Assembly: GCF_009914755.1 (NCBI RefSeq)
Contig: NC_060925.1
Origin: the human T2T-CHM13v2.0 reference genome, Homo sapiens
Length of the DNA: 64,000 nucleotides
Strand: one strand, 5' to 3'
Shown: positions 1 through 58,225 of the stretch, in pieces
Numbering within the stretch: position 1 is the first letter of the stretch
Layout: the number at the start of each line of letters is the position of its first letter
Position numbers and translations under genes: made by a program
The notes under the pieces: generated by a model
What the model saw: the letters and a program-made list of their open reading frames with translations, nothing else
Database searches by the model: none
What the model was told of the DNA's origin: nothing

Positions 1-77
1 ATATTCCTCCCACTTTCCACCCTCCCATGCACAAATTCACCAACTCTCTAGTTCATGTTTTAAAAAAGTGACATTGC

Positions 78-83
78 TTTATT
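78..83 (-). terminator. S100A11: S100A11 polyadenylation signal AATAAA
   Basis: tttatt on the plus strand, ~125 nt after the stop codon. Confidence 0.85.
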
Positions 84-207
84 ACTATTGGCAGGTGGGG
101 CCTGCATGAGGTGGTTAGTGTGCTCAGGGGATGGGTGGGCTGTGGAGATGATGACAGAAAGGCTGGAAGGAAAGGGGGTGGGTTTGAAGGCCAGGGCCAA
201 GGGGTCC

Positions 208-369
208 TCAGGTCCGCTTCTGGGAAGGGACAGCCTTGAGGAAGGAGTCATGGCAAGCCATAGCTAGGCCACCAATCAGATTAAGAAATTCTGAGAAATC
301 TAGCTGACCATCACTGTTGGTGTCCAGTTTCTTCATCATGCGGTCAAGGACACCAGGGTCCTTCTGGTT
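208..369 (-). CDS. S100A11: S100A11 exon 3 coding part (canonical EF-hand, C-terminus NQKDPGVLDRMMKKLDTNSDGQLDFSEFLNLIGGLAMACHDSFLKAVPSQKRT*)
   Basis: AG acceptor at 370-371, TGA at 208-210; 53 codons plus stop; matches the known S100A11 protein. Confidence 0.98.
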   Translation of the reverse strand, partial: NQKDPGVLDRMMKKLDTNSDGQLDFSEFLNLIGGLAMACHDSFLKAVPSQKRT

Positions 370-829
370 CTGCAGAGAAAATAATAATTACACCTTTTAT
401 CGCATCTTCTAATGTGCTTTCAAATATGCTGCCACATTTTATTCTCACAGGAGTATAAGGTACAGGATAGGGATTATTAATATTCCCATTTGCCAGATGC
501 AGAAACAGACTAAAAGAGGTGAAGTGACCTGCCTAAGGGGCAGACCTGGGGCTTGAACCAAAGGTTTTCCCACTCCTAGTCCAGGGCTCTTTCTATGATA
601 TTAGGGGCTATTCAGTTTTGTAAAGCCAGTGGAACACTTCTTTCAAGTGTTGCATGCAACTCCAATAGATAAACTATATAAAAGTACAGCGGGTTCAGGT
701 GGAAAAAGGCCACAGGCCCTGCCTAATCAGTCTCATCCTCCACTTGCCCAAGCTGCCAACACAGATACAGACTTAGAGCCACTGGTTACAAATGGCTATT
801 TACATTTACATTTACATTAACTAATTTAG

Positions 830-965
830 AAAGTCAGTCTGTTAGTCACACTAGCCACATTTCAAGCACTCAGCAGACACATGTGGCTGGTGGCTACCAT
901 GTTGGATAGAGCAGATATAGAATGTATTTCCACCACTGCAGAAAGTTCTACTGGACAGGGCTGCC
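830..965. mobile_element. hAT-Charlie MITE relic (MER3/MER33-like)
   Basis: ctagccacatttcaag...cacatgtggctggtggctacc signature. Confidence 0.6.
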
Positions 966-1192
966 ATAGAACCTCTGGGGTAGAATAATGAAATTTGAAA
1001 ATAATTCCATTACGTCATATACCATTTCATATATCTCTCTTCCTAAATGGAAAAACTCCTGGCTTAGAGTGAGTTAAAATGAAGCAAGAGTGTGGGGTGT
1101 CAGTTGCTGCTCCTTCATTCCTGGCCATTCTGCCAGGGTCTTGTTTCATGTTGTGGGTAGTTTGGGGAAGTGGGGGAGACAGGGACCAGTAC

Positions 1193-1345
1193 CTTTGTGA
1201 AGGCAGCTAGTTCTGTATTCATGAAGCTTAGGAACTCTGTCTTGGAGAGAGTGTAGTTATAACCATCCTTTCCAGCATACTTCTGGAAGACAGCAATCAG
1301 GGACTCGATGCACCGCTCAGTCTCTGTAGGGCTGGAGATTTTTGC
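1193..1345 (-). CDS. S100A11: S100A11 exon 2 (pseudo-EF-hand, AKISSPTETERCIESLIAVFQKYAGKDGYNYTLSKTEFLSFMNTELAAFTK)
   Basis: Lies within ORF 1115-1378; AG at 1346-1347, GT at 1191-1192; 153 nt, phase 0. Confidence 0.98.
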
Positions 1346-3879
1346 CTTTGGAGAAAAAAAATTGCAGGGCTCAGACAAGGGAAGATGTCAAGGCTGGATA
1401 CTGGAGAAAACTCCAGGGACTCTTATTTCAGGTCAAAGCAGTTTCCTAAAAGACTGAGTCATTTTTTCAAGGGGCTGAGGGGTTCAAGACAACCACAAAA
1501 AGTCACACTCTGTGACCTTCCGTCCTACCCCTCGCCACATGTTTATTCCAGGTGAAATATATGGAAGGTAAATGTGGAGCATTGCTGGCACGTTTAAAAG
1601 CAGTAGACTGCCTAGATGAGAGTGACGGTGACAAGGTTTACTCATATTTTTAAAATGTGTGGATAAATACATGTGTAACTCTATATCCACAAATCCATAT
1701 GCACACCAAACATTGTCTATAGGTTAATAATTTCTTATTTTCCAAGAGTGTATGGAGGCTTTTGTGATTAATGAAATGTCAGTTCTTTTTAAAGCAATAC
1801 CGAATTCCTGGGACTCACACATTTCCTTAGAGAAAACTAAAAGCATAGCTATCATTGTGTATGCAGTGGGAGATAGAACTTTTTAGATGTTTGAAAATGG
1901 CTTTCATATTTAAGAGTTAGGAACCATTAATCTTAGATGTGAGGAAACGGACAGGAGAAGGGAATGGATATGGCAGAGCCAGCCCTGGAATCTGGGCCTC
2001 CCAGTCCCTTTCTGCAGTCCTTAGCCTTGCAGGCTTCCACTTCCTGGTGGGAAATAGTGACAGAGAAGGTGGAGCTTCTCTGGAGGTCACTCCAAACCAG
2101 GAAGCTCTCAGGTTGCTGCTTACACAGCATCTACAATGTAAGAGATTTAAATCCTGTACTGGGCTCTTTCCTCACAGCAGAATTTTTCAAGGAAATTCTA
2201 TAGGGCCCAGTCATCCGGTTCCCCAAGGGGACTTAGGGTCCCAAAAGTGAGGAGCTGTTGGCCTCCCTCTGGTGGGTAGAAGCCGCAATTACAGACTTTC
2301 TGGGAAACCGGCCTGGCCACACCCTTCCTCTGAGACTTTACCTACTAGCGTTAACAATGATTTATGTTTGGATGGTGACATTTGCAACTTAGCATTTAGC
2401 CTTTCGTTTGTTCTTAGGATGGACTTCCTGGAGGCCAGAGCTAGAGGCTTTCTCACTCCGTAATTAACACGTGCTAAGAACTGATCTGAGCCCTTAGCTA
2501 CACAGCTGCAGATTGATTCCTCCTTCCTGTACAGCCTTTATGCTGCAGAGATCCTAGCTGAGTCTTGCCTCCCATTGCATCTTACAGCGTTAGAACCCCT
2601 GAACCCTAAGAGAGGTGGACTTTTTCCCAAGAATCACATTGTTGGAGGATGATTGTTTTTGTTTTGCTCTAAATTGAACTTTTCATTAAGAAAAGTGTTG
2701 GTAGGTTCAGGGGCCTTTAGGGGAGAAACAAAATACCACAGCCTAGAAACAGATGTGTTTGTTCTGTTACAACATGCCCTTCATATCAGGCCTAAAATCT
2801 CCCTGTCTTACTAAGGTATCAGATGACAGGAAGGAGACTGGCTGGGAGGCCACACCAGGCTGAGGAGCATGGGCTTTGTCACCTTTCTCTGGAACTACAG
2901 ATTCTCCCCCTGCCCCTTTTCCTTCCAGAATGCAGACAGTTTTGCTTTTCCAGTTTCACAGTGCCTTTCTGCTTCACATTTTTCTCTCCTTAACATCAGT
3001 CTTGGTGTAATTTAGAGATTATTTTCTTTTGAAAACTGTTGCTGTTGCTATCAGCCACAAGGAGAAAATTAAAACCTCTTTGCATTTCCTCCCAGAGGTA
3101 ATTCTCCAAAGTGAAAGAAAGAGACACAATTATCAAATTACTAAAATGGAACGGCATAATTTGTAGAGCTCCAGGGCACTTTGGAGATGGGTCCTGAGGA
3201 CGCCCAGAAACCGGAAAGCTCTGCCCAGGGTGGCGCAGTGGCTGAAGGAGAGGAGAACCGGCGCTCTCCACACCTCATGGCACTCTTGGAGTCTTACTTG
3301 GTGGGGATGGCGATAGCAAGGAGCAAACATTATGATAAACGGATACTGTGAAATAATTTTTAAAAATGCATGCTAAGCGCTCAACATTTGAGGAAAGAAA
3401 AAAATACGATGAAAAAGACGTAGCAATTTTAAAAACCTCAACTATTGTCTTCTCATTCTTAACCAACACCCTCCGGAGCTTTCTGTCCCTGCTGTAGCAG
3501 GACTGCAACCCCAGACAGTATGGAAGGGAATGGGCGTGGCTCTGTTCCAATACTTCATTTATGGACGCTGAAGTTTGATTTCCACATAATTTTCACATGT
3601 CAGAAAGTATTTTTCTTCTTTTGATTTCTTTCAATCATTTACAAATGTAAACTTTATTCTTAGCTTGTGGGCAGAACAGAAAACCCGACTTGGCCCGCGG
3701 GCCAGTTTGCTGACTCTCCACTAAGGAGAGGTAAAGAAAGAGATTTTGGAGGTGGAATTATGGAAAATATGAGTTCAACTGGGAGATGAAAGGAGATAAG
3801 AAGAGAAAAATAAGTTACGGAGTGAGTGCCTAAATAGATGGTGGGGTAAAAGGAAGAGGAAGGAGGAGAGGGCTCAGCT

Positions 3880-4680
3880 GGGACCGGGTTCCTCCCACAT
3901 TCTTGGCCGCGGCGCTGCGGGCGGCGACGGGCTAAAGTTTCAGTCCCGTTGGGTCTTGGCCGTCTGCCGGGTGCTTACTGAAACTTTGATTTTCCCTGGG
4001 GCTAGACGACCAAGTTCTAAAATGTCCCTTTTCTGGTGTACAGAAATAACTAGTGACCCCTCGCAGCTTTCCAGCCCCCTGCCTTAAACTTGCTCCTAGG
4101 CGTCTCTGGGCTCCCGGGAGACCGCGGGCGAGGGGCTGGAGGCAGTGACCCACGACGGGTCCCCCCCCCGCGCGGTGAGCGGCCAGCACTTCCTCTTCCC
4201 CAGCCCTGGGCCTTGTCGTGACTGGGAAGGCTAAAGAACCTCCGCTGCTACCCTAGGCGGCCACCCCAAGGATGATTTTAGGGCTTCATCCTTCCATCCC
4301 TTCTTCCCCAGTTCCCTCCCACGAGGCTGATTTTTCCTGCTGTTTCCTGCCACGTCCACACATAAGTCAAAGATAAAGTCTGCTGGGAAGTATGTGGGTT
4401 TTTTTTCTTTTCTTTTTCTTTTCATGTAAGAAGAAGAAGAAGAAAAGTGAGGCTTACCATGTTGGAGCTGAGCGAGGCGCGGGAGGCTGTGGCTGGGAGC
4501 GGCGCTGAGAGCTCTGTGCGCGCGGCGTGCGGGTCTGGAGCCTCTCCTCAACCCACGCCCTTCCCGGCCCAGCCTTGCCCAAGCCTTACTCAGACAGCCT
4601 CCGCGCCTGCCCCGCCCCTCCCCGCCTCCCGGGCTGGGCCTGGGACCGCGGCCGGCGCTAACCACAGAACTGAGCTTTAA
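3880..4680 (-). promoter_or_regulatory. S100A11: S100A11 CpG-island promoter / exon 1 with GC box
   Basis: Dense CpG; GGGGCGGGG at 4610-4618; AP-1-like TGAGTAA at 4586-4592; no canonical TATA. Confidence 0.85.
4458..4460 (-). CDS. S100A11: S100A11 exon 1 coding part (ATG only)
   Basis: CCAACATG immediately followed by a GTAAG donor (4453-4457); 1+51+53 codons = 105 aa. Confidence 0.95.
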
Positions 4681-25800: not shown

Positions 25801-26068
25801 TTGTTTTTGCTTTTTGTGGGCTCCAATAGGTAAATGTGAATATGAATATTATTGAATGGACGGATAAAAATATGTGTTTTATGAGTGAAAGATAAGCCTC
25901 ATTCTAGAGGCCATGACAATGATGCTTTATCTCAGTTTTCAATCTGAGACTAGAAGAAGACCAAGGGGAAATTAATGCTTAGTAACTATTTCTTGTACTT
26001 TTTATAAGGTTTATAATTTGGCTTTACAATTTGAAATGTCTTTCAGAAGAGCCTAGAGAGAGTTATAG

Positions 26069-26074
26069 TTTATT
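26069..26074 (-). terminator. Candidate poly(A) signal AATAAA of the SFTP pseudogene (ATTAAA also at 26115-26120)
   Basis: ~370 nt beyond the inferred stop, just before repeat-derived DNA begins. Confidence 0.55.
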
Positions 26075-26440
26075 GATATTAAAATCACAGGTTACTGAAG
26101 GATATTACACAACATTTAATTTTTCTTTTCACCATAAGCCATTCCTAAAAACTGTTAGAGTCCCAGAAACCAAAAGTTGAAGAATTGGACCTGTGATAGA
26201 TAGAGTCTGAGGTTTATGGAGGAAGAAAAAGCCAAGAATGCCTAAGACAATCAGCTCAGCCAACTGGGGAGGTGAAAATTTTTTGTAGCATCTGGATATC
26301 ACTTTAGAACTCATCCTCAGAGGATCTAGTGTGCTTGTTAGATTTCCAAATATGATAGACATCATCCTGCTGGTCGTGAGCATAATCTTCCTATGTTCCT
26401 TCCTCATCCTGGTATACATAGTCTTCTTCTGGATCCCAAA

Positions 26441-29400
26441 TTAGGTAGCAGCAATAACTTGCCCATTCTTGTGATTCTTACACATCTCCAAACCTGTATA
26501 ATTGAGCCTATTTTCTGTATTTGTTGTTTCAGATGGATCATGAAGACAATAGCATAACCAGTTACCTTTCTTCTTGGGAAAAAAGTATACCTCACAAGTT
26601 ATTGGCCCAATTTTTCTGGTGGATGCTAATTCCTAAGGATCTAAATCTCTAAGCTCAGCTTCCTCCTGCTTGGGGAAATACTTTTGATCTTTTTCTCTCC
26701 ACAGCTGCTCTTTTGTTTCATGGTCAAATTCTCTCACAGATATGCCTTTTCCAGAGTTTCTCTCATTTTTGCCCCTAAGATGACCCTCATCCTTTTTAGA
26801 AGGTGGTTTTTGCTCTCTAACCTCTTGTCTTTCATCATACCTTGGTTCTGGTCTCATGTCTGTTACCTGGTGTCTTCCATAATTCCTAGAGTCTGGCCTC
26901 AGATCTCTCTTGGTTTCTTTCATCATGCCTGGGTTCTGGTCTCATGTCTCTCACTTGATATCTCCTATCATTCCTGGACTCGAGGCTCAGATCTCCCACT
27001 TGTCTTCTCTCAACATCTCTTAGTGCAAAGATCTGGTCTCTATGTTGGAATCCTTCATATTCTCTTGTAGTTGTTCTCTGCTCTCTAATTTGGTGTCCTC
27101 CATCATTCCTGAGTCCAGGGCTCAGGTCTCTCACTTGTTTTCTCCCATCATTCCTTTGGTGCTGGGATTTGAGATCTCACTTGGCACCCCTGATTTTCTG
27201 TTGGAGCTGGTATTTGATTTTGAATGTGGTGTTCCCCGTCATTATCGAGTTCTAGGCTCAGGTCTGTCATATGGCATCTCCTATCAATCTCAGGTTCAGG
27301 ACTCAGGTCTCTCACTTGGCTTCTTCTATCATCCCTTGGTGTGGAGATCTAGTCTCTATGTTGGAATTTTTCATTTTACCTTGGAGCTGGTCTCTGTTCT
27401 CTAACCCGACTTCTCCCATCATACCTGGGATTTGGTTTCTGCTCTTTAATTTGGTGTTCCGCATAATTGCTGGGATCAGGATTCGGGTCTCTCACTTGGC
27501 TTCTCTCATCACCCCTTGGTGTGAGCTTCTGGACCCTATGTTGGGATCTCTCATATTGTCTTGCAGCTGGTCTCTGCTCCCTAACAGGACTTTTGTCATC
27601 ACTTCTGGGTTCTGGTCTCATGTCTCTCAGTTGGTATCTCACATCGTTCCTGGTATTAGGACTTAGGTCTCTCATTTGGCATCTCTCCCTTTCCCTTGTT
27701 GAGGGGATCTGGTCTGTATGCTGGAATCCTCGATATTCTCCTTCAGCTGGTCTCTGTCCCCTAACTTGGTGTCTGTTTCCATCATTCCTGGGCTCAGGTC
27801 TCTCATCTGACTTACCCATCATTCCTTGGTGCTGGGGTTCTCTCTCTCACTTGGTGTCTCTGATTTTGTGTTAGACCTTGTTTCTGTTGAACCTAGCATT
27901 TCCCATCATTATTGAGTTCTTGGCCCAGGTCTCTCACATGACATCTCCCATGGTTCTCAGGTTCAGGGCTTAGGTCTCCCTCTTGTCTTCTCTCATCACC
28001 CTTTTGTGTGGAGATCTTGTCTCTATGGTGGAACCTTTCATATTGCCTTGGAGCTGATCTCTGCTCTCTAACTTGACTTCTCTCATCACATCTTGGATCT
28101 GGTCTCTGCTTTCTACCTTGACTCCTCCTATCATACCTGGGTTCTGGTCTCTCCTCCCTAATTTGATGTTCCCCATTATTTCTGGGCTCAGGGCTCAGGT
28201 CTCTCACTTGTCTTCTTTCATCCCTTGATCTGGAGATCTGGTCTCTATGTTGGAATCTTTCATATGGCCTTGGAACTGGTCTCTGCTTTCTAACTTGACT
28301 TTTCTCATTATCCCTTGATTCTAGGCTTTCATCAGTCACTTGATGTCTCTCACTTTCAGTTAGAGCTAATCTCTGTTGGCTAAAATAAAATCTCCCTTCA
28401 TTCCTGGGTTGAGGGCTCAGGTCTCTCACCGGATATTTCTCATCATCTCTAGATGCTTGTTGTTCATGTCTTGCTTGGTGTCTCCCTTTATTCCTGGTCT
28501 GTGGGCTCAGGTCTCTCACTTAATGTCTCTCATCATCCCTTGATGTTGAGCTTCCATCTCTTGCTTGGTGCGTCCCTTCATTCCTCGGTTGTGGGCTCAG
28601 GTCTCTCGCTGGATATCTCCCATCATCTCTTGATGTTGGGCTTTCATCTCTTGTTGGTGTCTCTCATCTTCTGTTGGAGCTGATCTCCGATCTCTAACTT
28701 GGTGTCACCCATCATTCCTGGGTTGCGGGCTCATGTCTCTTACCTCTTACTGGATATCTCCCATTATCTCTTGGTGCTGGGCTTTTATCTCTTACTTGGT
28801 GTCTTTCATCTTCTGTTGGAGCTGATCTCTGATCCCCAACTTGGCATCTCCCATCACTTCTGGTCTGTGGGCCCAGGTCTCTCACTGGATATCTCCCATC
28901 ATCTCTTGATGTTGGGCTTTCATCTCTCACTTTGTGTCTCTTATTTTTTGTTAGAGCTGATCTCTGATCCCTAACTTGGTATCTCCTATCATTCCTGGGT
29001 TTTGGGCTCAAGTCTCTCACTGGACATCTCCTGTTATCTCTGGATGCCAGGCTTCCATCTCTCCCTTGGCATCTCACATCATTCATGGTTTGTAGGCTCA
29101 GGTCACTCACTGGATAACTCTCATCATCCCTTGATGCTGGGTTTTCATATCTCACTTGGTGTCTCTCACTTTCTGTTGGAGCTGATGTCTGTTTTCTAAC
29201 TTGGTGTCTCCCATCATTCCCAGGTTGTGGGCTCAGGTCTCTCACTTGATGTCTTCCATCATCCCTTGGCATTGGGGCCCGGTTACTATCTTGGAGTCTG
29301 TCATGTTGTCTTGGAACTGATCTCTGCTCCCTAAATTGACATGTCCCATCATTTCTGGGTTCTGGGCTCATATCTCTGACTTGTTGTCTCCCATCATTTC

Positions 29401-31209
29401 TGGGTTCTGGTGTCTGCTTCCTAACTTGATGTCTCTCATACTTCCTGGGCTGTGGGCTCAGGTCTCTCACTTGGCATTTCTCATTATTCTTTGTCCCTAT
29501 GGACTGAATCTTTATCTTGTGTTTCCCATTTTCCTGTAGCATTGGTGTCTGATCACTGACTCCCAGTCTTTCATCTTCTCTTGGAGATAGTCTCTGCTCT
29601 CTAATTTGCTGTCTTCCACTATTTTGAGTATATGAGCTCAGTTCTCTCACTAGATGTCTCTCTTCATCCATTGGTGCTGAGGTCTGAGCACTCATCTGTT
29701 GTCTCTCACTCTTGTTGACCTGACTGATCTTGTGGTTCTGGCCTGTGGTCTTGTACTGGATGTTTTCCATAATTGCTTGGAGCTGGATCCTGGTTTCTCA
29801 CTTGTTTGCTGCCAACATCCTGAGATACAAGAATCTTGTCTTCTCTCACTTGATGCCTCCCAGTATCCCTTGGTGTTGGGTTCTGGATTCTTACTTGGTG
29901 ATGCTCATCAACTCTTGGTTCTAAGATCTGCTCTCTACCAGATTGTCTTAGATAACCTTGGAGTTCTAGCCTCCTGTCTCTCACTTGAACACTTCTGTAA
30001 TCACTTTGTGTTGACAAATGACCTCTCTCTTGGTATCTTACAGAGTCCTGGGATTCTAGGCTTTGGTCCCTCACTTGTCATTGCCCATCACTATTTGCTT
30101 TGGGATTTGGTTTCTCACTTGGTGTCTCTGTACATCCTGGGAATCTTGCCTCTGATCTCTCACTTGAAGACTGCCATCATTCCGTAGTGGTGGGACCTGG
30201 TTTTTTACTTGATTTCTTCTCACATCACAGATCTTAGAATTTAGGTCTCTCACTTGGTGTTGCCCCAAATCCTGAGGTTTAGGGCTTATGTCTCTTATTT
30301 GAAGTCTGTCAGCATTCTGGGGTTCTACACTCTGGTCTCTCACTTGATGCCTTCTGTCATGCCTTAGTATCGGGACCAAGTCTCTCCTTTGGAGCCTTTC
30401 ACTATCCTGGGTTTCAGGGCCCAGGTGTTTTGCCTTACATTGTGGAACATCCTGCAACTCTTGCCTATGGTCTCTTACTCGATGACTTCCCTCAGGTCCC
30501 AGTGCTGTAATCTTCTCTCTGACTTGGTGTCTTCCAACATTCTGAGATTCTAAGGTCTGATTTCTCATTCCATGAGTCGCATTATCCCTTAGGGTTGGGA
30601 TCTGGTTTCTTATGTGGTGTCTTTGAACGTCCTGGGATGCTGGGTTCTAGTCTCTCATTTGATGCCTTCTGTCATGCCTTGATGTTGGCATCTGGTCTCT
30701 CATTTGGTGTCTCCCAGCATCCTGGTATCTTAGGCTCAGGTTTCTCCCTTGGCCCCCCCATCATTGCTTGGTATTTGGGCTTGGCCTGTCACCTGGTGTC
30801 TTCCAATATTTTGTGGTTCAGGGCTCAAGTCTCTCACTTGGTGTCTTCTAATATGCTGTGATTCTTGGTTATGAGCTTTAACTCCATGACTCTCATCATC
30901 ACTGGGTGTTGGGATTTGGTCTCTCACTTTATGTCTCCAAATATCCTGGGACTCTCGGCTCTGATCTGTCTGCTGACGTTTTTTCTTTGTCTGGTTGCCT
31001 GCCTTTGAGTCCTTTTGCTTGTCGTCCTTGCATTTCGGATCTTCTCTCCATTTCCTTTAATTCAGGACAGAGAAGAGCTTTTATGCATGCATGATAGGCT
31101 TTTGTCACTGTAAGCACCAGCAAAATGAATTCACTGAAATCAACTGTTTTGTGACCATCTTGATCCAGCTGTTGGAGGATTTTTCTATTGTCTCAGAATT
31201 AGTTGTTTT
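26441..31209 (-). pseudogene. SFTP pseudogene exon 3, former coding part: KTTNSETIEK/fs/ILQQLDQDGHKTVDFSEFILLVLTVTKAYHACI + repeat domain + unique tail
   Basis: Polypyrimidine tract and TAG acceptor at 31210-31211; 12-residue EF loop at 31130-31165; chain of minus-strand ORF fragments between 26633 and 31123. Confidence 0.92.
26750..30930 (-). repeat. Degenerate 45-nt coding tandem repeat (~90 units; 15 aa RHQVRDxSPxPRxDG)
   Basis: tctctcacttg recurs on the plus strand at 45-nt spacing; 15-aa periodicity in ORF 28712-29770. Unit count estimated as length/45. Confidence 0.9.
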
Positions 31210-31805
31210 CTATGAGAAAAAAATCAAGAAAGTAGTTTATTAATCATTTGTTATTTTTTTCCTTCTCTTATGTTTTGTTACCAAGAAAATTCCTTAGGGG
31301 ACATTTAAGAGGTCTGTTTTCTAGTTCTATTTATAGCTATTTCACTGCATATTATTTTCTATGGCAGTATTATGTATATTTTTATATTTTGAGATCACAG
31401 TAACTGAAATGTATATTCCTAGTATTAATAAAATATAGCATTATTTTATTACATATTTATTAACCACTAACACACCCTGTTTTCCCCCAACTCTCAATGA
31501 TGACTCTGCTTTATAATGAAATCCAAGTCACCAAACTGGAACTCTCTCATTTATCCAAGCAAAGGAACAAACTTTCTTTAATGTGTACTCTTTCCTGAGA
31601 CAGTAGAGGAAGTTTTTCTCTTTCTATCCAAAGCAAATCCATCTGTTTGTGCCCTCGAGTTCATGCCCTTTACTTTATAAAAGACTGAGTTACTTCTGAT
31701 AATTTCTCTTTCTCTTGACTTTTTGATGCTTTAGTCTCTACTGGATCATTCCAGACAGAGAAACAGTATGCTTTATTAGCTATCATACTTTAAAAAATTT
31801 CCTGT

Positions 31806-35095
<3,290 letters not shown>

Positions 35096-35131
35096 GTAAA
35101 TGTGCAAGGAGTGAGCCCCTGTCCTTCTTAC

Positions 35132-35294
35132 CTCCAAGGCCATTCCAAACTCTTGTCTGAGAAGTGTCTTGAGTTTTGTCTTGTTCAGCCTCTGCCAGTC
35201 TCCATCACTCTGCGTGCTTGTGGAAAATGTCGATGATACTGATGCTGCTCCTCAGAAGATAGGGAAGCATCTTGTTTTGCCAACTGGAGTGCAC
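35132..35294 (-). pseudogene. SFTP pseudogene exon 2 (pseudo-EF-hand): MLPYLLRSSISIIDIFHKHA/fs/SDGDWQRLNKTKLKTLLRQEFGMALE
   Basis: AG at 35295-35296, ATG at 35268-35270, GAG|GTAAG donor at 35132/35131; 139 coding nt (frameshift) giving TGA at 35205-35207; aligns with TCHHL1 exon 2 in this window. Confidence 0.92.
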
Positions 35295-36224
35295 CTGGAA
35301 TGCACCAAGGAATACCCAACTTGTTTAATTTTTCTGAATCTCTATCATCCCTTCTTTCTTCATCTCTTGGAGGTAAATTACAGTGTAAAGATCCGGCTTA
35401 TTTGATTGTTTATCTGACTCCTTTAGAGATTTTTCTTTGAGGGCCAGGACCATGTCTTATCTATTTTTTATTTATCCTAGTGCCTCAAATATAGTAGAAG
35501 TTCAATAAATGCCTGATGAATGGGTGCAGAAACAAATGAGTGAACCCTGATTTGAGTGATATGTTGGAATAGGTCTGTGGTTCCCAAACTTTGCTGTACT
35601 ATAGAGTCACCAGGAGGAGCTTTAAAGAAATAAAGACTCCAGGCCCCACCTCCAGAGAGAGTGGCTCAATAGCTCTGGGGTAGAGTCCTAGACTCTGCAT
35701 TTAAAAAGCTCCCCACTGATTCCTTTGCAGCCGCAAGAACTACTGGCCACCTGACCTCTGAGATCCTTTGCAGCTAGAAAGTTTTGCAATGGCAATAATA
35801 ATGAATTAACTGACTTAGCAAGCATTTCTTAATTTCCTTTGTGCCAATGCTGTGTTGTGTTCTGGGAATGGGAGATGAATAAGAAATAGCTCCTTTCCTC
35901 AAGGAATTCAAAGCTTGGAGGAGGAGATGCAGTTATCTCAGTACAGTCTGATAATTTACACGTAGCGGTGGCTGGGGACTAAGACAGGAGCTCTTCTTAG
36001 ATGATGCCATTCTTGAAGATTATAGAGCAGTACTTTTAAAACATGGGCAAAGTCCACTAGGGTATTGCTCCTGTCATTCTAATTACAACTTGTCAGTGTT
36101 AGAACTTTCATAGAATTTTCCAGAAAGCCAAAGCTATATCTGCGCAGTCTAATTGTCTATGTAAGAATACTAAGGAAGGAAAACATTTACAAAAACAGAA
36201 ATATAATTTTTTTAAAGAACTTAC

Positions 36225-36303
36225 TTAAATTGCCAAGAGAAATGGAGGACTCAGGCCTGAGAGCTCATGGAATAATGGGCTTGGGGATCCTGGTGCTTAT
36301 ATA
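36225..36303 (-). promoter_or_regulatory. SFTP pseudogene TATA box and non-coding exon 1
   Basis: TATATAA at 36297-36303; GTAAGT donor at 36219-36224; intron 1 of 930 nt versus 856 nt in TCHHL1. Confidence 0.75.
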
Positions 36304-37099
36304 GGGGTTTTAATTACACCCTTTAACCTGACATCTTTTGCAGACAACACCCTTGGTGTATAATGGACTGAATCATTGCCAACCAAACCCCATTCCACCT
36401 GTTTCTCCTCTAAGCGGGGCTTTTAAACTCAGCATTTCCTTGAATGCCACCCCTATTTTGCATTTGTTCTGTGTCTGCAGCCTGGCTCCTGAGGGACAGC
36501 TACTTCTCACATCCCTGTGGGGCCATAGTGCCACCAGGATGTCTTGACAGTGTGCTGAAGTACTCTCAAGAAAAACCTTGTGAACCAATAGTGGCCTCAT
36601 CTCCTGCAAGTAAAATGAGTTCTTAACCTGAGCCATTTTAGTCATGAACAAGATCTCTTTCACTGTCTGTAATTGCACATTTTATTTGGATATGTTGAGG
36701 CTGAAGTGCCCAGTTGCATTAGATGCTTGCTATACTGTGATGTAAAACACAAACATGAGTCTGTCTTAATCCCCACCTGGCCTATTCCTTCGGCGGGTGG
36801 TTCTGTGCCTCACGACCCATCTCCCTGTGTCTATCTGCTGTCAAAGCATAAGTTGTTTGCCCTGTGTGAGAGACAACAACTTTTCGTATTTGATGGTGAT
36901 AGCAGCAAAATGTTGGACACAGGAGAGGATCTGTGGGCTGCAGAGTTGGCGGTCTGTTGAAACGTCACTGCTTGAAAGTTAAAAACCATTTTCAATTTCA
37001 CCAGCTTATAAATAGTTTCTTTGTTTCTGAAGAAATTATGTATGGGTGGATGTACTCTAACATAATCCTTTATGATACTAAAAATAATTCCCACTCACC

Positions 37100-51195: not shown

Positions 51196-51734
51196 TTCCT
51201 TTAGTAAGTCTATGCTCTAGTGTAGTACATATGTATGTTTGTGTATGTGTATGTATATTAGAGCATGGACAAACTAAAAGAAATATATATATTTTTCTTT
51301 TTTATGAATTGTCTCATGTTTCTTGCTCATTTAAAGTAATATTTTTTTCAGATAGGGATATAATTCATATTTGAGTGTAGAATGAAAAGAGCTGAAAATA
51401 TTGGAGGGGGAGGTTATATACTTGGATTTTAGGCTCTGGAAAATGTGAAGGTTGAAGTGGAAGAATACTGAACCTCGAAGGCAGAATGCAATGGGAGATG
51501 GAGTATTGGACTGCTTTTTGGCTTCAGGAAACATTGTATGATAACAATTTTATTCCTTTCCTGGGTCATGACTAAGCTTGAAGAGCATCATACTTTAATT
51601 ATAGTCTTTTGAAAAAACACAAATAACTAAGATTGTTTTCGTTTTTGATCAGTGTCTCCAAGGCAAGACGGAGAATGAGGGGAAAAAAATGACCCAACAA
51701 AAGAAATTGATCATCAGGTTGTTTAATTATCAAT

Positions 51735-51740
51735 TTTAAT
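51735..51740 (-). terminator. TCHHL1: Candidate TCHHL1 poly(A) signal ATTAAA
   Basis: tttaat on the plus strand ~800 nt after the stop; a second copy at 51722-51727. Confidence 0.55.
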
Positions 51741-52532
51741 TTAATACCCTCATCAAACCATATAGGTAAACACTTAGTAGACTCACTGGATGGTTGGTTA
51801 CAAGAGCTTCTTATAAAATCAAACATACTTTAGATTTGTGTTTTCTCTCATAATTATTCTTGATTGTTTATTTGAGCCAAAAGCTATGAAAAGTTTGTGT
51901 AAGGAGTGGGATTTAATAAAAATTTGTTGGATGAGTAATTGAAAGAATGAATCCATGGCGATAGATTCAGCTGCACCTGAACATGAGCAGAGTCATAAAT
52001 TTACTTTAATCAAGTGCTAGAAAATCATAATTAAGTTATGGCATTGTCTAAAATTATTTTGAAGGATAAAATTTTAGGATGAACTTGAAATACTTCTAGG
52101 AAATGTCATGAAGCAGAGTAATCTATATATATGAATTAATATTTTATGATTATGAGATATTATTGCAGAGTCTTATAATTTCCTACTGCTCTATTTTAAA
52201 TTCAATGAATCAGTTGGAAAAACTGGCACCTGCTAAAGATATGGAAGGAATTTTTCCATTTTTAATGACAGGTACATTGAGATAAACTGTCTCATGACAA
52301 AGCCCATTTTGGCATTTGGAAGTAGCATTGTTTGGTAGGAGTTTTACTGACTGTATTTGTTTGCTCAGATGTTTCTTTAGTGGTGTCCCCCACTGCTGAA
52401 TATTTTATTATTTGTTTTTGTAGAAATTTAGGAAGAGAATTTAAAAGATTGTTAATCTGCATCTGAATGTGTACACGTGAGTATTGAGGGTGATTGGGAG
52501 AGAAATTGGGGGCATGTTGAGATGATAATGAT

Positions 52533-55160
<2,628 letters not shown>

Positions 55161-55520
55161 CTAAGTGTCTCCCAAGAATCCTATTTTTCTGACCTCATTC
55201 CTCAGTAACTGGTTAACTTTCCCAGAACAGCAAGAACTTATTGGTTCTGCAAGCCATTTTTCATCAGAGAGCTATGCCTGAGAAAGAGCATTTACAACAC
55301 TTGTGAGTTGCATTTTGATGCATAATGGTTTATGACTCCTTTCAGAAGTCAGCTTTGCAGAAGCAATAATCCCAGTGACGAAAACCTCTTTTTCTCTAAG
55401 TAATTGCACAGAGTATGGAACTGAGACTGAAAATAGTTGTTCAAGAGACAGTGAGTGCTGAGAACTGTTAGCTAGGTGTAAAATGGATGGGGATCACATA
55501 TGCTCATCTTGCTTGGATTA

Positions 55521-55793
<273 letters not shown>

Positions 55794-56585
55794 TTATCCT
55801 TTTTGTTCCTCCCCCATCTCCACTGCAACCCCTGCTCTATTCTGTATCTTAAAATATTATATCTGAACTCCAGGGGTGATTTAGTTTTGTACCAGACATT
55901 GTGGTGAAATCAGACCCAGCATAGGTAAGTATTAGAAGAGACAATTCACCCCACTCTTCAGTAAACAGCAACATTCATGTGCTCAGAGAAAGCTTCATTG
56001 CAAAAGGAAGGTGATAAGAGAACTCAAGCATAAGGATTGAAATGCATAAATGAAGCCAATAGAGTTGGACCCATTCTTCCAGCCTCATCCAAGAGTGTCT
56101 ATCTGCTCTCCTCTCCCTTTGGCTCAGTCTAGCCTCCTGCGGTTAGGAGGGTATAACCTTTAAAGTTAGCAAAGCTTCTAGTGGAAAGATAAGTCACACC
56201 AAGAAAATTAACCCCTATGTTTGCAGGTGGTAACAACATGCTTTAACCAAGAAGACATGATTCCATGTCCCGACCCCTTATTCATTCATTTCCCATCCTT
56301 TAAATGCTTCTACATTTTCATTGCAATAGAGATCTGATCCTGTGCCTTGTTGAATAATATTCATGCCTATGACTTCTAAACAATTTATGTTTTTTTTAAA
56401 AAGAAAATGATCAAAGAAGTTCCATAATCAAGGAATGCATTTGGGTGGTTGGCGCTCCCAGTTTATTATTATTAATAGGGGTTGACATAGACTTAAAGTG
56501 TGTTTCCTTTGAAATCCTCTTGCAATCTCACATATAAGCAAAACAGCAACTGAAATCCCAAGTATGCTCAAGCAGATGGACTTAC

Positions 56586-56662
56586 CTAGTTCACAAGCGA
56601 GAGCAGGTAGAACGTGGGGCAGCGGGCTGTGAGCTGACAGCAGGAGCTGGAACCTTTTATTG
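56586..56662 (-). promoter_or_regulatory. TCHHL1: TCHHL1 non-coding exon 1 and variant TATA (AATAAAA)
   Basis: TAG|GTAAGT donor at 56586/56585; CAATAAAAGG at 56653-56662. Confidence 0.8.
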
Positions 56663-58225
56663 AGGTCCTAATTGCACAGTTAAGAAGGAGACACCCTCTG
56701 GGTCTAATGACCTGACATCACCACCAAATCCAGTCTCCCCTGCTCTGTTGTCAGTTGTCTTAATTTTATTTCCTTCTTTAGGCAGTTTCAATTAAATCTT
56801 AGCTTCAGATGCATCAAAAGAAAGGGGAGGGGGTTTCTTGATTCATTTACTGACTTTTGCAGATTATAGTTTTGAAGGCTCTTCAAGGTAGTGTTGGCTT
56901 CCCTCCCCCATTTTTTAACCTAAGGACATAATTACATTTCTGTCTGACAAATCATAGTGCTGGCAGGGACCTCATAAGTCATCTGATTCCTCTGTCTGCC
57001 CACAAGATGGCCCGTATTTGACCCAAACCTGAGAGATGGGTGTCAATCATGTGTTTAAAAATAAAGGCCCCCATTTAGCCATGTGACAAAAGTGGAGATA
57101 CCAGTTGATTCAGATGTTTCAATGCTTTGCTCTCCTTGCCCAGAGGCAGAGTTAGAAAAAAAAAAAAATTCTTGCTTGGTGTGCAAAGCCTTGCTTACCT
57201 ATGTTGTGCTATTTTAAAAACGTGATTGATATTTGCTTTCTAAAGACATTTTTACTATACAAGGAGCTTGAAACCAATAATCTATATTACTGTGTTCTCC
57301 CTGTAAAGGGGAAAGGGAGATGTTGAAATCATCAAGCTGAGAACAGAAGTGAGTCTGAGATGCTGAACTGGCAAACATTTTAATTGTCTCCTAGATCTGG
57401 GTCCTTCTTAGTAGAGAATATTTAATAAAATAAGAATTAGATTCAATGGTTTTCTTAGATATTTTTAAAAAATAGAGTATGTTTTAAAACACTCCTTGTC
57501 AAAGGATGGAAGAAATAGACAGATCAATGCAAACAAATATAAAAGACACAGACCAAGTTAAAGATGGGGTGGGAATGGGGGTAATTATATGAGAAAGCTG
57601 AAGCTAAGGGATGCATTGCTATTGAGCAAAAACCTTATTCTGAATTTCCTGATTATCGAGGAACATACAAGGGAACTAAATTTTGGGGAAAAACATTCAT
57701 ACTGATACTTTACACCTACAAACAATTTCTCAGCATCCTCCCAAAGGGAGAAGACTTCTGGGAATTGGAATTGGCATGTGAAGGTCATCTTAGTTCTGAT
57801 TAGTTAATATCCCCAGAGTACCAGCTATTTCTCAACACTATGCCAGGAACTGGAGTATTTAGAGTTGAGTAAGTTATATCTTCCTGCTCTGGAGCTCATG
57901 GGCCAGTCTCATGAAGAACTGGGTATATTCAAGGCTGGATTGGAAAGAAACACTTATGGGAGACATAATAACTGTCTTCAAATACTTGAAGGATTTTTAT
58001 GGGTGTGGAAGAGAAAAGAATTAATGTTTATTGAAAACTTATGACATGTCAGGAGCTTTACATGGGCTATCTTAATCCTCACAGCCCTTTTAGGTAGTTA
58101 TTATCCTCTTTTAACAGATAAGGAAGTTAAGGCTGTTAAGCAATTTGCCTACAGATATGTACCTTTACTAGGTAATGGCAGAGTCAGGATTCAGAAATGA
58201 AAGGTTTCAAGAAAGTATGTCTCTG

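What the first reader, a model, noticed from the sequence alone, without database searches (positions are those of the whole stretch)
26050..36303. A hidden, complete but dead S100-fused-type (trichohyalin-like) gene between S100A11 and TCHHL1
Seen in sequence: on the minus strand, TATATAA (36297-36303), a short non-coding exon ending in GTAAGT (36219-36224), and a second exon (35132-35294) encoding MLPYLLRSSISIIDIFHKHA/SDGDWQRLNKTKLKTLLRQEFGMALE. After a phase-0 intron comes a ~5 kb exon starting KTTNSETIEK/ILQQLDQDGHKTVDFSEFILLVLTVTKAYHAC, followed by a long repeat domain. Established: this is the three-exon architecture of SFTPs (TCHH, TCHHL1, RPTN, HRNR, FLG, FLG2, CRNN), of which humans have seven functional members. 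Inference: an eighth SFTP of ~1,600 aa, at the S100A11-proximal end of the cluster, was lost in the human lineage. It may be the orthologue of the gene called Tchhl2 in comparative studies of other mammals; I cannot verify that or its annotation status here.
Basis: partly seen in the sequence, partly recalled or inferred. Interest (0 to 1): 0.93.

Follow-up and report, generated by a model that had tools for sequence, protein, structure and literature searches.

The report
Dead human TCHHL2 skin-protein gene
Between S100A11 and TCHHL1 the human genome carries the complete but heavily broken remains of an eighth filaggrin/trichohyalin-type gene (TCHHL2) that is still intact in some other mammals; this was already reported in 2015, so it is a sound but known observation.

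Summary
On the minus strand at window 26050-36303 there is a full three-exon S100 fused-type protein (SFTP) gene. It has a TATA box, a short non-coding exon 1, a 46-codon exon 2 and a 4.9-kb coding exon 3, with four canonical splice sites. It also has a 15-residue repeat domain, a conserved C-terminal domain, a stop codon where the orthologues stop, and an AATAAA signal.

The gene is dead. It carries at least 19 disabling lesions: 13 frameshifts and 6 in-frame stops.

It is not a copy of a known human SFTP. Its S100 domain is at most 43% identical to the seven human members, but 69% and 64% identical to intact proteins of a ground squirrel and a shrew (1441 and 1749 aa). It forms a 100/100-supported clade with those two. 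Read through, it aligns with them over its whole length.

Strasser et al. 2015 (PMC4437054, main-text passages read) state that the human genome holds a deleteriously mutated TCHHL2 remnant. RefSeq on T2T-CHM13 does not annotate it. I could not compare it with sheep or cattle TCHHL2, and the supplements were closed. Interest is low.

The parts
36297..36303 (-). TATATAA, a TATA-box-like promoter element
   Evidence: Read directly. It aligns with the AATAAAA upstream of the annotated TCHHL1 exon 1 (2-sequence alignment, no control).
36225..36272 (-). Putative non-coding exon 1. The 5' end is not determined; the 3' end is set by the TTTAA|GTAAGT donor.
   Evidence: About 45 nt, like the 45-nt exon 1 of TCHHL1 in the annotation table. 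The transcription start is inferred only.
35132..35294 (-). Exon 2. It holds the ATG at 35268-35270, the first (S100-type) EF-hand and one frameshift near 35210. The donor is GAG|GTAAGA.
   Evidence: Pfam S_100 matches profile positions 3-16 (13 bits) and 19-40 (21.5 bits) on the two sides of the frameshift.
31210..35131 (-). Intron 2, 3.9 kb. All three repeat-masked stretches inside the gene lie here (31780-32121, 32977-33155, 33608-34104).
   Evidence: Annotation table of the finding. The ORF translations look Alu-like; that label is recalled, not tested.
31130..31165 (-). Loop of the second EF-hand, DQDGHKTVDFSE. Position 5 is H where the squirrel and shrew proteins have D.
26304..31209 (-). 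Coding part of exon 3: the rest of the S100 domain, the repeat domain, the C-terminal domain and the TAA stop at 26304-26306. It carries at least 12 frameshifts and 6 in-frame stops.
   Evidence: The squirrel protein matches only within this stretch of the human genome, 13 of 13 matches.
26640..30990 (-). Repeat domain with an R/Q/D/E/S/P-rich 15-residue unit of the type RHQVRDLSPEPRNDG, and higher-order units of 90-225 nt.
   Evidence: Tandem Repeats Finder; composition R 14.7%, Q 10.7%, D 9.1%, like the squirrel and shrew tails.
26307..26630 (-). Conserved C-terminal domain (…RKIGPITCEVYFFPKKKGNWLCYCLH … SSEDEF), broken by one frameshift and one stop.
   Evidence: alignment with the C-termini of P0002 and P0015. 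The final SSEDEF and the stop are at the same place.
26050..26303 (-). 3' untranslated region with AATAAA at 26069-26074 (an ATTAAA also at 26115-26120).
   Evidence: The poly(A) site is inferred.

Best explanation
This is the unitary pseudogene of TCHHL2, an eighth mammalian S100 fused-type protein gene. It sits at the S100A11-proximal end of the SFTP cluster of the epidermal differentiation complex.

By inference from the family and from intact orthologues, the ancestral gene made a protein of about 1,450-1,750 residues. That protein had an N-terminal two-EF-hand S100 domain, a long arginine/glutamine/acidic repeat domain built from 15-residue units, and a lineage-specific C-terminal domain. 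It served in cornifying epithelia, as trichohyalin and its relatives do.

In the lineage leading to humans the gene stopped being needed and decayed. The gene skeleton is still recognisable: the TATA box, four splice sites, the ATG, the terminal stop and the poly(A) signal. The reading frame is broken at least 19 times, so no SFTP can be made.

Shown here: the gene anatomy, the lesions, the distinct lineage and the intact relatives. Inferred: the ancestral function, the time of loss, and that the locus has no function today.
For: - **Anatomy and signals:**
- **S100 domain in three collinear pieces:** Pfam S_100 matches profile 3-16 and 19-40. Solved S100P, S100A1 and filaggrin S100 domains match at chain positions 56-88/60-90.
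- **Exon 2/3 boundary:** it falls after the same codon as in all 7 human SFTPs.
- **Lesions:** a reference-free minimum gives 12 frameshifts plus 6 stops in exon 3 and 1 frameshift in exon 2.
- **Intact relatives:** a search of 1.84 billion representative proteins gave 14 hits at E<=0.001. The top two were 1642 aa (E 1.2e-110) and 1441 aa (E 4.1e-99). The 1441-aa protein is a full SFTP named 'trichohyalin-like' in a ground squirrel. A 1749-aa one comes from a shrew.
- **S100-domain identity:** 62 of 90 to squirrel, 58 of 91 to shrew, and at best 39 of 90 (RPTN) to a human SFTP.
- **Tree of 11 S100 domains:** pseudogene plus squirrel plus shrew get 100/100 support. The pseudogene is sister to the squirrel (87/81), as the species tree predicts.
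- **Whole-length alignment:** the read-through has 1687 positions, 19 of them X. It is 45.2% identical over 1410 columns to squirrel and 41.6% over 1580 to shrew. The control against TCHHL1 gives 23.0% over 832 columns.
- **Single human counterpart:** the squirrel protein matches this locus only, 13 of 13 matches, under a stricter first look.
- **Literature:** PMC4437054 (passages) reports a human TCHHL2 remnant. PMC10791643 (passages) says TCHHL2 is present in cattle and annotated in opossum but not conserved in human and elephant.
Against: - No sheep or cattle TCHHL2 sequence was available. The equation of this locus with 'TCHHL2' therefore rests on the 2015 paper's sentence and on this being the only extra SFTP-like locus I found.
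- Synteny in squirrel and shrew was not checked.
- Each exon-2 piece alone is below Pfam's 22-bit cut-off (21.5 and 13 bits).
- The lesion count is a lower bound from a frame-path minimisation, not from a codon alignment to an orthologue. The positions of the frameshifts are approximate.
- Nothing here tests whether the locus is transcribed.
Confidence: 0.93

Rival explanations
1. The locus is the remnant of a lost SFTP lineage that is orthologous to the squirrel and shrew 'trichohyalin-like' genes. That lineage is not the gene named TCHHL2 in sheep and cattle, so the human TCHHL2 remnant reported in 2015 would lie elsewhere.
For: No direct comparison with a sequence named TCHHL2 was possible. 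The databases returned only proteins named 'trichohyalin-like' or 'cornulin-like'. Fig. S5 of PMC4437054 was not readable.
Against: A Pfam S_100 scan of the whole human genome found no further S100 exon in the SFTP cluster. It found only S100A10, S100A11, TCHHL1, TCHH, RPTN, HRNR, FLG, FLG2 and CRNN (37 matches in the genome). The broken exon 2 of this locus itself fell below that scan's threshold, so another broken remnant could be missed in the same way. Mammalian SFTP surveys name only one extra member, TCHHL2.
Confidence: 0.04
2. The locus is a recent, partial duplicate of one of the seven known human SFTP genes and has since decayed.
For: The SFTP genes are tandem paralogues with repeat-rich exons, which are prone to duplication.
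Against: S100-domain identity to the seven human SFTPs is 31.1-43.3%. That is no higher than the identities among the long-separated paralogues (33-64%). The exon-3 N-terminal piece finds no other human locus better than E=0.26. The tail composition and C-terminus differ from TCHHL1, TCHH and RPTN. The gene is complete, not partial.
Confidence: 0.01
3. The gene is functional. On this view the apparent lesions are assembly errors, are bypassed by alternative splicing, or the locus now works as a non-coding RNA or regulatory element.
For: The TATA box, all four splice sites, the ATG and the poly(A) signal look intact. Several open stretches of 100-361 codons remain.
Against: At least 19 independent lesions are spread over the whole coding sequence of a telomere-to-telomere assembly. 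The first frameshift leads to a stop after codon 21. RefSeq lists no transcript, CAGE cluster or named functional element inside 26050-36303 (annotation table; one further enhancer is not listed by place).
Confidence: 0.02

Closest known systems
TCHHL2 (trichohyalin-like 2) of sheep, cattle and opossum, and the human 'TCHHL2 remnant' of Strasser et al. 2015 (PMC4437054)
   Same: It is an eighth SFTP beside the seven human ones and is said to be deleteriously mutated in human. That matches a single extra SFTP-like locus with at least 19 lesions. Intact full-length relatives exist in other mammals.
   Different: Nothing was shown to differ. The identity with the published remnant could not be checked base by base, because the supplement was closed and no sheep or cattle sequence was at hand.
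'trichohyalin-like' protein of Ictidomys tridecemlineatus (P0002, 1441 aa) and of Suncus etruscus (P0015, 1749 aa)
   Same: They share the S100 domain (69% and 64% identity), the repeat type and composition, the C-terminal KIGPITCE…SS(E/D)DEF domain and the stop position. They form a 100/100 clade with the human sequence.
   Different: Both are open reading frames, while the human one is broken. The number of repeat residues differs (1441 and 1749 aa against about 1687 positions). The human EF-hand 2 loop has H-K where they have D-E or D-K.
Human TCHHL1, the neighbouring gene at window 51707-56630
   Same: Same three-exon layout, same strand, a 46-codon exon 2, and some promoter and exon-1 similarity.
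   Different: Only 28 of 89 S100-domain positions are identical. Over the whole length the identity is 23%. The tail is different (E/Q/S/G-rich) and the C-terminus is unrelated.
Repetin (RPTN), the closest human paralogue by S100 domain
   Same: 39 of 90 identical S100-domain positions, with shared ETVE-ILxxLDQD and FHKYA motifs.
   Different: It lies outside the TCHHL2 clade in the tree. Its repeats are different.

Membership tests
S100 fused-type proteins (SFTP) | Three-exon gene: a non-coding exon 1, an exon 2 with the ATG and first EF-hand ending in phase 0, and one large exon 3 | tested here: met
   The exon 2 end aligns with that of all 7 human SFTPs. Exon 1 is inferred from the TATA box and the donor only.
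S100 fused-type proteins (SFTP) | N-terminal S100 domain (Pfam PF01023 plus a second EF-hand) | tested here: met
   Two collinear S_100 matches of 13 and 21.5 bits flank the frameshift. Each is below the 22-bit cut-off alone. The second EF-hand matches solved S100 proteins at chain positions 56-88. The intact relatives carry PF01023.
S100 fused-type proteins (SFTP) | Long, repeat-rich, low-complexity tail | tested here: met
   45-nt units with higher-order periods. About 1,450 repeat-domain positions rich in R, Q, D and E.
S100 fused-type proteins (SFTP) | Position in the SFTP cluster of the epidermal differentiation complex | tested here: met
   The locus lies between S100A11 (window 52-4549) and TCHHL1 (51707-56630), by the annotation table. 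The other SFTP exon 2s lie further along the same contig.
S100 fused-type proteins (SFTP) | Open reading frame, that is, a functional member | tested here: not met
   At least 13 frameshifts and 6 in-frame stops.
TCHHL2 orthologue group | Closest relatives are intact non-human SFTPs distinct from the seven human types, in species-tree order | tested here: met
   100/100 clade with the squirrel and shrew proteins, and human sister to squirrel at 87/81.
TCHHL2 orthologue group | Collinear over the full length, including the C-terminal domain and the stop | tested here: met
TCHHL2 orthologue group | Sequence match to the gene named TCHHL2 in sheep or cattle (Jiang et al. 2014) | not testable with these tools
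   No such sequence was returned. The paper was not held. The link rests on the sentence in PMC4437054.
TCHHL2 orthologue group | Conserved synteny (S100A11 - TCHHL2 - TCHHL1) in species with an intact gene | not testable with these tools
   No mammalian genome other than the window's own is held.

The most novel reading that the evidence does not exclude
The most novel reading has two parts.

First, the loss of TCHHL2 may be fairly recent in primate history. The six in-frame stops correspond to roughly 0.027 neutral substitutions per site, with a Poisson range of 0.010-0.059. By recalled lineage divergences, that is about the depth of Old World monkeys and apes. A member of Euarchontoglires, the ground squirrel, still has the gene intact. 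The loss could therefore mark a specific change in a cornifying epithelium of anthropoid primates.

Second, the promoter, splice sites and poly(A) signal look intact. The remnant might therefore still be transcribed as an unannotated non-coding RNA in some stratified epithelium.
Probability: 0.12. Interest if true: 0.35.

Novelty: already known. Interest (0 to 1): 0.2.

Why it matters
It confirms that the ancestral placental set of S100 fused-type genes had eight members and that humans keep the eighth as a well-preserved fossil. This is useful for annotation, because RefSeq on T2T-CHM13 has no entry here. Protein databases also hold short spurious 'proteins' read from open stretches of this pseudogene or of relatives in other genomes. 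It is also useful for dating gene loss in the epidermal differentiation complex. It does not change what is understood about skin biology, because the remnant was reported in 2015.

Tried and rejected
- **Word-index search with the 87-aa exon-3 piece** against longer proteins found nothing (31 candidates, none at E<=0.01). The exhaustive search with the 361-aa repeat ORF then found the orthologues.
- **Pfam on the two largest repeat ORFs** gave nothing meaningful: one DUF6406 match at E=0.2, and 0 families for the second ORF.
- **Search for a C-terminal motif shared with other SFTPs.** blastp of the last 125 positions against the last 200 residues of TCHH, TCHHL1 and the longest open frame of the RPTN locus gave only chance-level matches (best E=0.047 over 7 residues). 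The RPTN frame may not reach the true C-terminus. I therefore do not claim the general SFTP C-terminal motif.
- **Profile search for a protein named TCHHL2**. It returned 6 proteins: squirrel, shrew, a Tasmanian devil 'cornulin-like' protein, two unnamed fragments and a kea 'trichohyalin-like' partial protein. None was named TCHHL2.
- **Papers not held:** Jiang et al. 2014 (PMC4157056) and Mlitz et al. 2014 (PMC4260798).
- **The promoter alignment with TCHHL1** has no control and is used only as a hint.
- **The hits P0004 and P0012** are unrelated repeat proteins, by inspection of their sequences, and were dropped.
Full report
**Observation**

- TATATAA lies at 36297-36303. A short stretch follows, ending in TTTAA|GTAAGT, with the donor at 36219-36224.
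- Exon 2 spans 35132-35294. It is preceded by an AG acceptor and followed by GAG|GTAAGA. From the ATG at 35268-35270 it reads MLPYLLRSSISIIDIFHKHA. The frame then breaks and continues one base on as SDGDWQRLNKTKLKTLLRQEFGMALE.
- Exon 3 begins at 31209 after a pyrimidine-rich acceptor (…tttttttctcatag). It reads KTTNSETIEK, breaks frame in a run of A, and continues ILQQLDQDGHKTVDFSEFILLVLTVTKAYHAC.

**Is it an S100 domain?**

- Pfam S_100 (45 positions, cut-off 22 bits) matches the two exon-2 pieces in the right order. Profile positions 3-16 score 13 bits and positions 19-40 score 21.5 bits. Each is below the cut-off alone. The intact TCHHL1 exon 2 in the same window scores 58.4 bits as a positive control.
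- The exon-3 piece matches solved S100P, S100A1, S100B and the filaggrin S100 domain at chain positions 56-88/60-90. That is the second EF-hand and the last helix.
- The end of exon 2 falls after the same codon as in TCHH, TCHHL1, RPTN, HRNR, FLG, FLG2 and CRNN. I took their exons from the window's own genome.

**The rest of the gene**

- The tail is built from 45-nt (15-residue) units with higher-order periods of 90, 135, 180 and 225 nt.
- The tail is rich in R (14.7%), Q, D, E, S and P.
- It ends in a non-repetitive domain, …RKIGPITCEVYFFPKKKGNWLCYCLH…SSEDEF.
- TAA follows at 26304-26306 and AATAAA at 26069-26074.

**How dead is it?**

I ran a reference-free dynamic programme. It walks exon 3 from the acceptor to the terminal stop and charges one unit per frameshift or in-frame stop. 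It needs 18 events: 12 frameshifts and 6 stops. With the exon-2 frameshift, the total is at least 19.

With a higher charge for frameshifts the path takes 7 frameshifts and 13 stops, so the total is never lower. Frameshift positions are approximate.

The six stops are TAG or TAA. At five of them a glutamine is what the neighbouring repeat units show, or what the squirrel protein shows at the 26635 stop. At the sixth (26393) the squirrel protein has W. That glutamine reading comes from my inspection of the printed sequences, not from a computed consensus.

The first frameshift already leads to a stop after codon 21.

**What is it related to?**

It is not a copy of a known human gene.

- The exon-3 N-terminal piece finds no other human locus better than E=0.26 (9 matches at E<=10, including itself).
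- S100-domain identity to the seven human SFTPs is 31.1-43.3%, with RPTN the best at 39 of 90. Identity to S100A11 is 25.6%.

An exhaustive HMMER search with the 361-residue open stretch of the repeat domain, against 1.84 billion representative proteins, gave 14 hits at E<=0.001.

- The top two are 1642 aa (E 1.2e-110) and 1441 aa (E 4.1e-99).
- The 1441-aa protein is a complete SFTP. A source names it 'trichohyalin-like [Ictidomys tridecemlineatus]'.
- A 1749-aa relative is 'trichohyalin-like [Suncus etruscus]'.
- The 1642-aa protein starts just behind the S100 domain and is close to the shrew protein.
- Two hits (P0004, P0012) are unrelated repeat proteins and were dropped.
- The remaining short hits are fragments of the same gene family.

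The human S100 domain is 62 of 90 identical to the squirrel protein and 58 of 91 to the shrew protein.

In a maximum-likelihood tree of 11 S100 domains, the human sequence, squirrel and shrew form a clade with 100/100 support. The human sequence is sister to the squirrel (87/81), as expected for orthologues. The other inner branches are weak: 1 of 8 is starred and 5 are open. The domain has only 91 columns, and S100A11 and TCHHL1 sit on long branches.

The read-through, with X at each break, has 1687 positions. It aligns end to end with the squirrel protein (45.2% of 1410 columns) and the shrew protein (41.6% of 1580). The control against TCHHL1 gives 23.0% of 832 columns. The C-terminal domain and the stop coincide with those of the orthologues.

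Searched back against the human genome, the squirrel protein matches only chr1:151182307-151187189, which is window 26307-31189. All 13 of 13 matches lie there. The tool used a stricter first look, so weak matches elsewhere may be missing.

**Literature**

- A full-text search for 'TCHHL2' found six papers. A search for 'trichohyalin-like 2' found one.
- Strasser et al. 2015, Exp Dermatol (PMC4437054; passages read), searched for TCHHL2 in cetaceans and human. [quoted passage not shown] 2014, Science. [quoted passage not shown] S5)', indicating inheritance from a common mammalian ancestor and independent inactivation in cetaceans and humans.
- A 2024 paper (PMC10791643; passages) says bovine TCHHL2 is the only SFTP not conserved in human and elephant, and that opossum has TCHHL2 annotated.
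[quoted passage not shown] 2014 itself was not held.

**Mechanism**

Shown here: a complete gene skeleton whose frame is broken throughout, and intact orthologues elsewhere.

Inferred: the ancestral protein worked like other SFTPs. Those are calcium-binding proteins with an S100 head and a long charged repeat tail, deposited in cornifying keratinocytes. The human copy is a unitary pseudogene without a protein product.

**A rough clock for the loss**

Given the codons on the chosen frame path, 221.8 stop-creating substitutions are expected per unit of neutral divergence. This assumes a transition/transversion ratio of 2 and ignores CpG effects. Six stops then give d of about 0.027, with a Poisson 95% range of 0.010-0.059.

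By recalled lineage divergences, that is of the order of the ape and Old World monkey split. This conversion is an inference, not a tool result. The squirrel's intact gene shows the loss came after primates and rodents diverged, or was independent of rodents.

**Verdict**

The novelty class is 'already known', although the locus is unannotated in the RefSeq table supplied. Interest is low.

Noticed in passing
window 27583-27822, 28178-28519 and 30074-30568 (minus strand): The protein libraries hold short predicted 'proteins' that are open stretches of this pseudogene in human-like genomes. P0011 is 96% identical over 80 residues. P0010 and P0005 equal human ORFs apart from internal gaps. They look like spurious gene predictions from a dead gene.
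   Followed up: partly
P0009 against window 27815-27937: A 90-aa database fragment is 85% identical to the human sequence. It reads through two places where human has a stop or a frame break, then itself runs into the off-frame reading. It is probably another, differently decayed copy in a related species. Such copies could be used to date the loss.
   Followed up: no
P0006 (607 aa, 'cornulin-like [Sarcophilus harrisii]'): This marsupial protein has a TCHHL2-like S100 domain and repeats. Its last roughly 80 residues read YQGMMGD…, which is the off-frame translation of the same repeat type. The gene model may be frameshifted or mis-named.
   Followed up: no
window 36195-36345 against 56560-56705 (minus strand): The promoter and exon-1 region of the pseudogene aligns with that of TCHHL1. 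The TATA element, an upstream GTGYAATTA…ACC block and the GTAAGT donor line up. It is a two-sequence alignment without a control.
   Followed up: partly
window 31780-34104: All three repeat-masked stretches inside the gene lie in intron 2. At 3.9 kb this intron is longer than intron 2 of TCHHL1 (462 bases, from the annotation table). The translations look Alu-like, which is a recalled label (annotation table).
   Followed up: no
P0002 residues 20-30: The squirrel protein has one residue fewer than the shrew protein and the seven human SFTPs in the first EF-hand loop, exactly where the human exon 2 is frameshifted. It is therefore unclear whether the human lesion is a 2-base loss or a 1-base gain.
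   Followed up: partly
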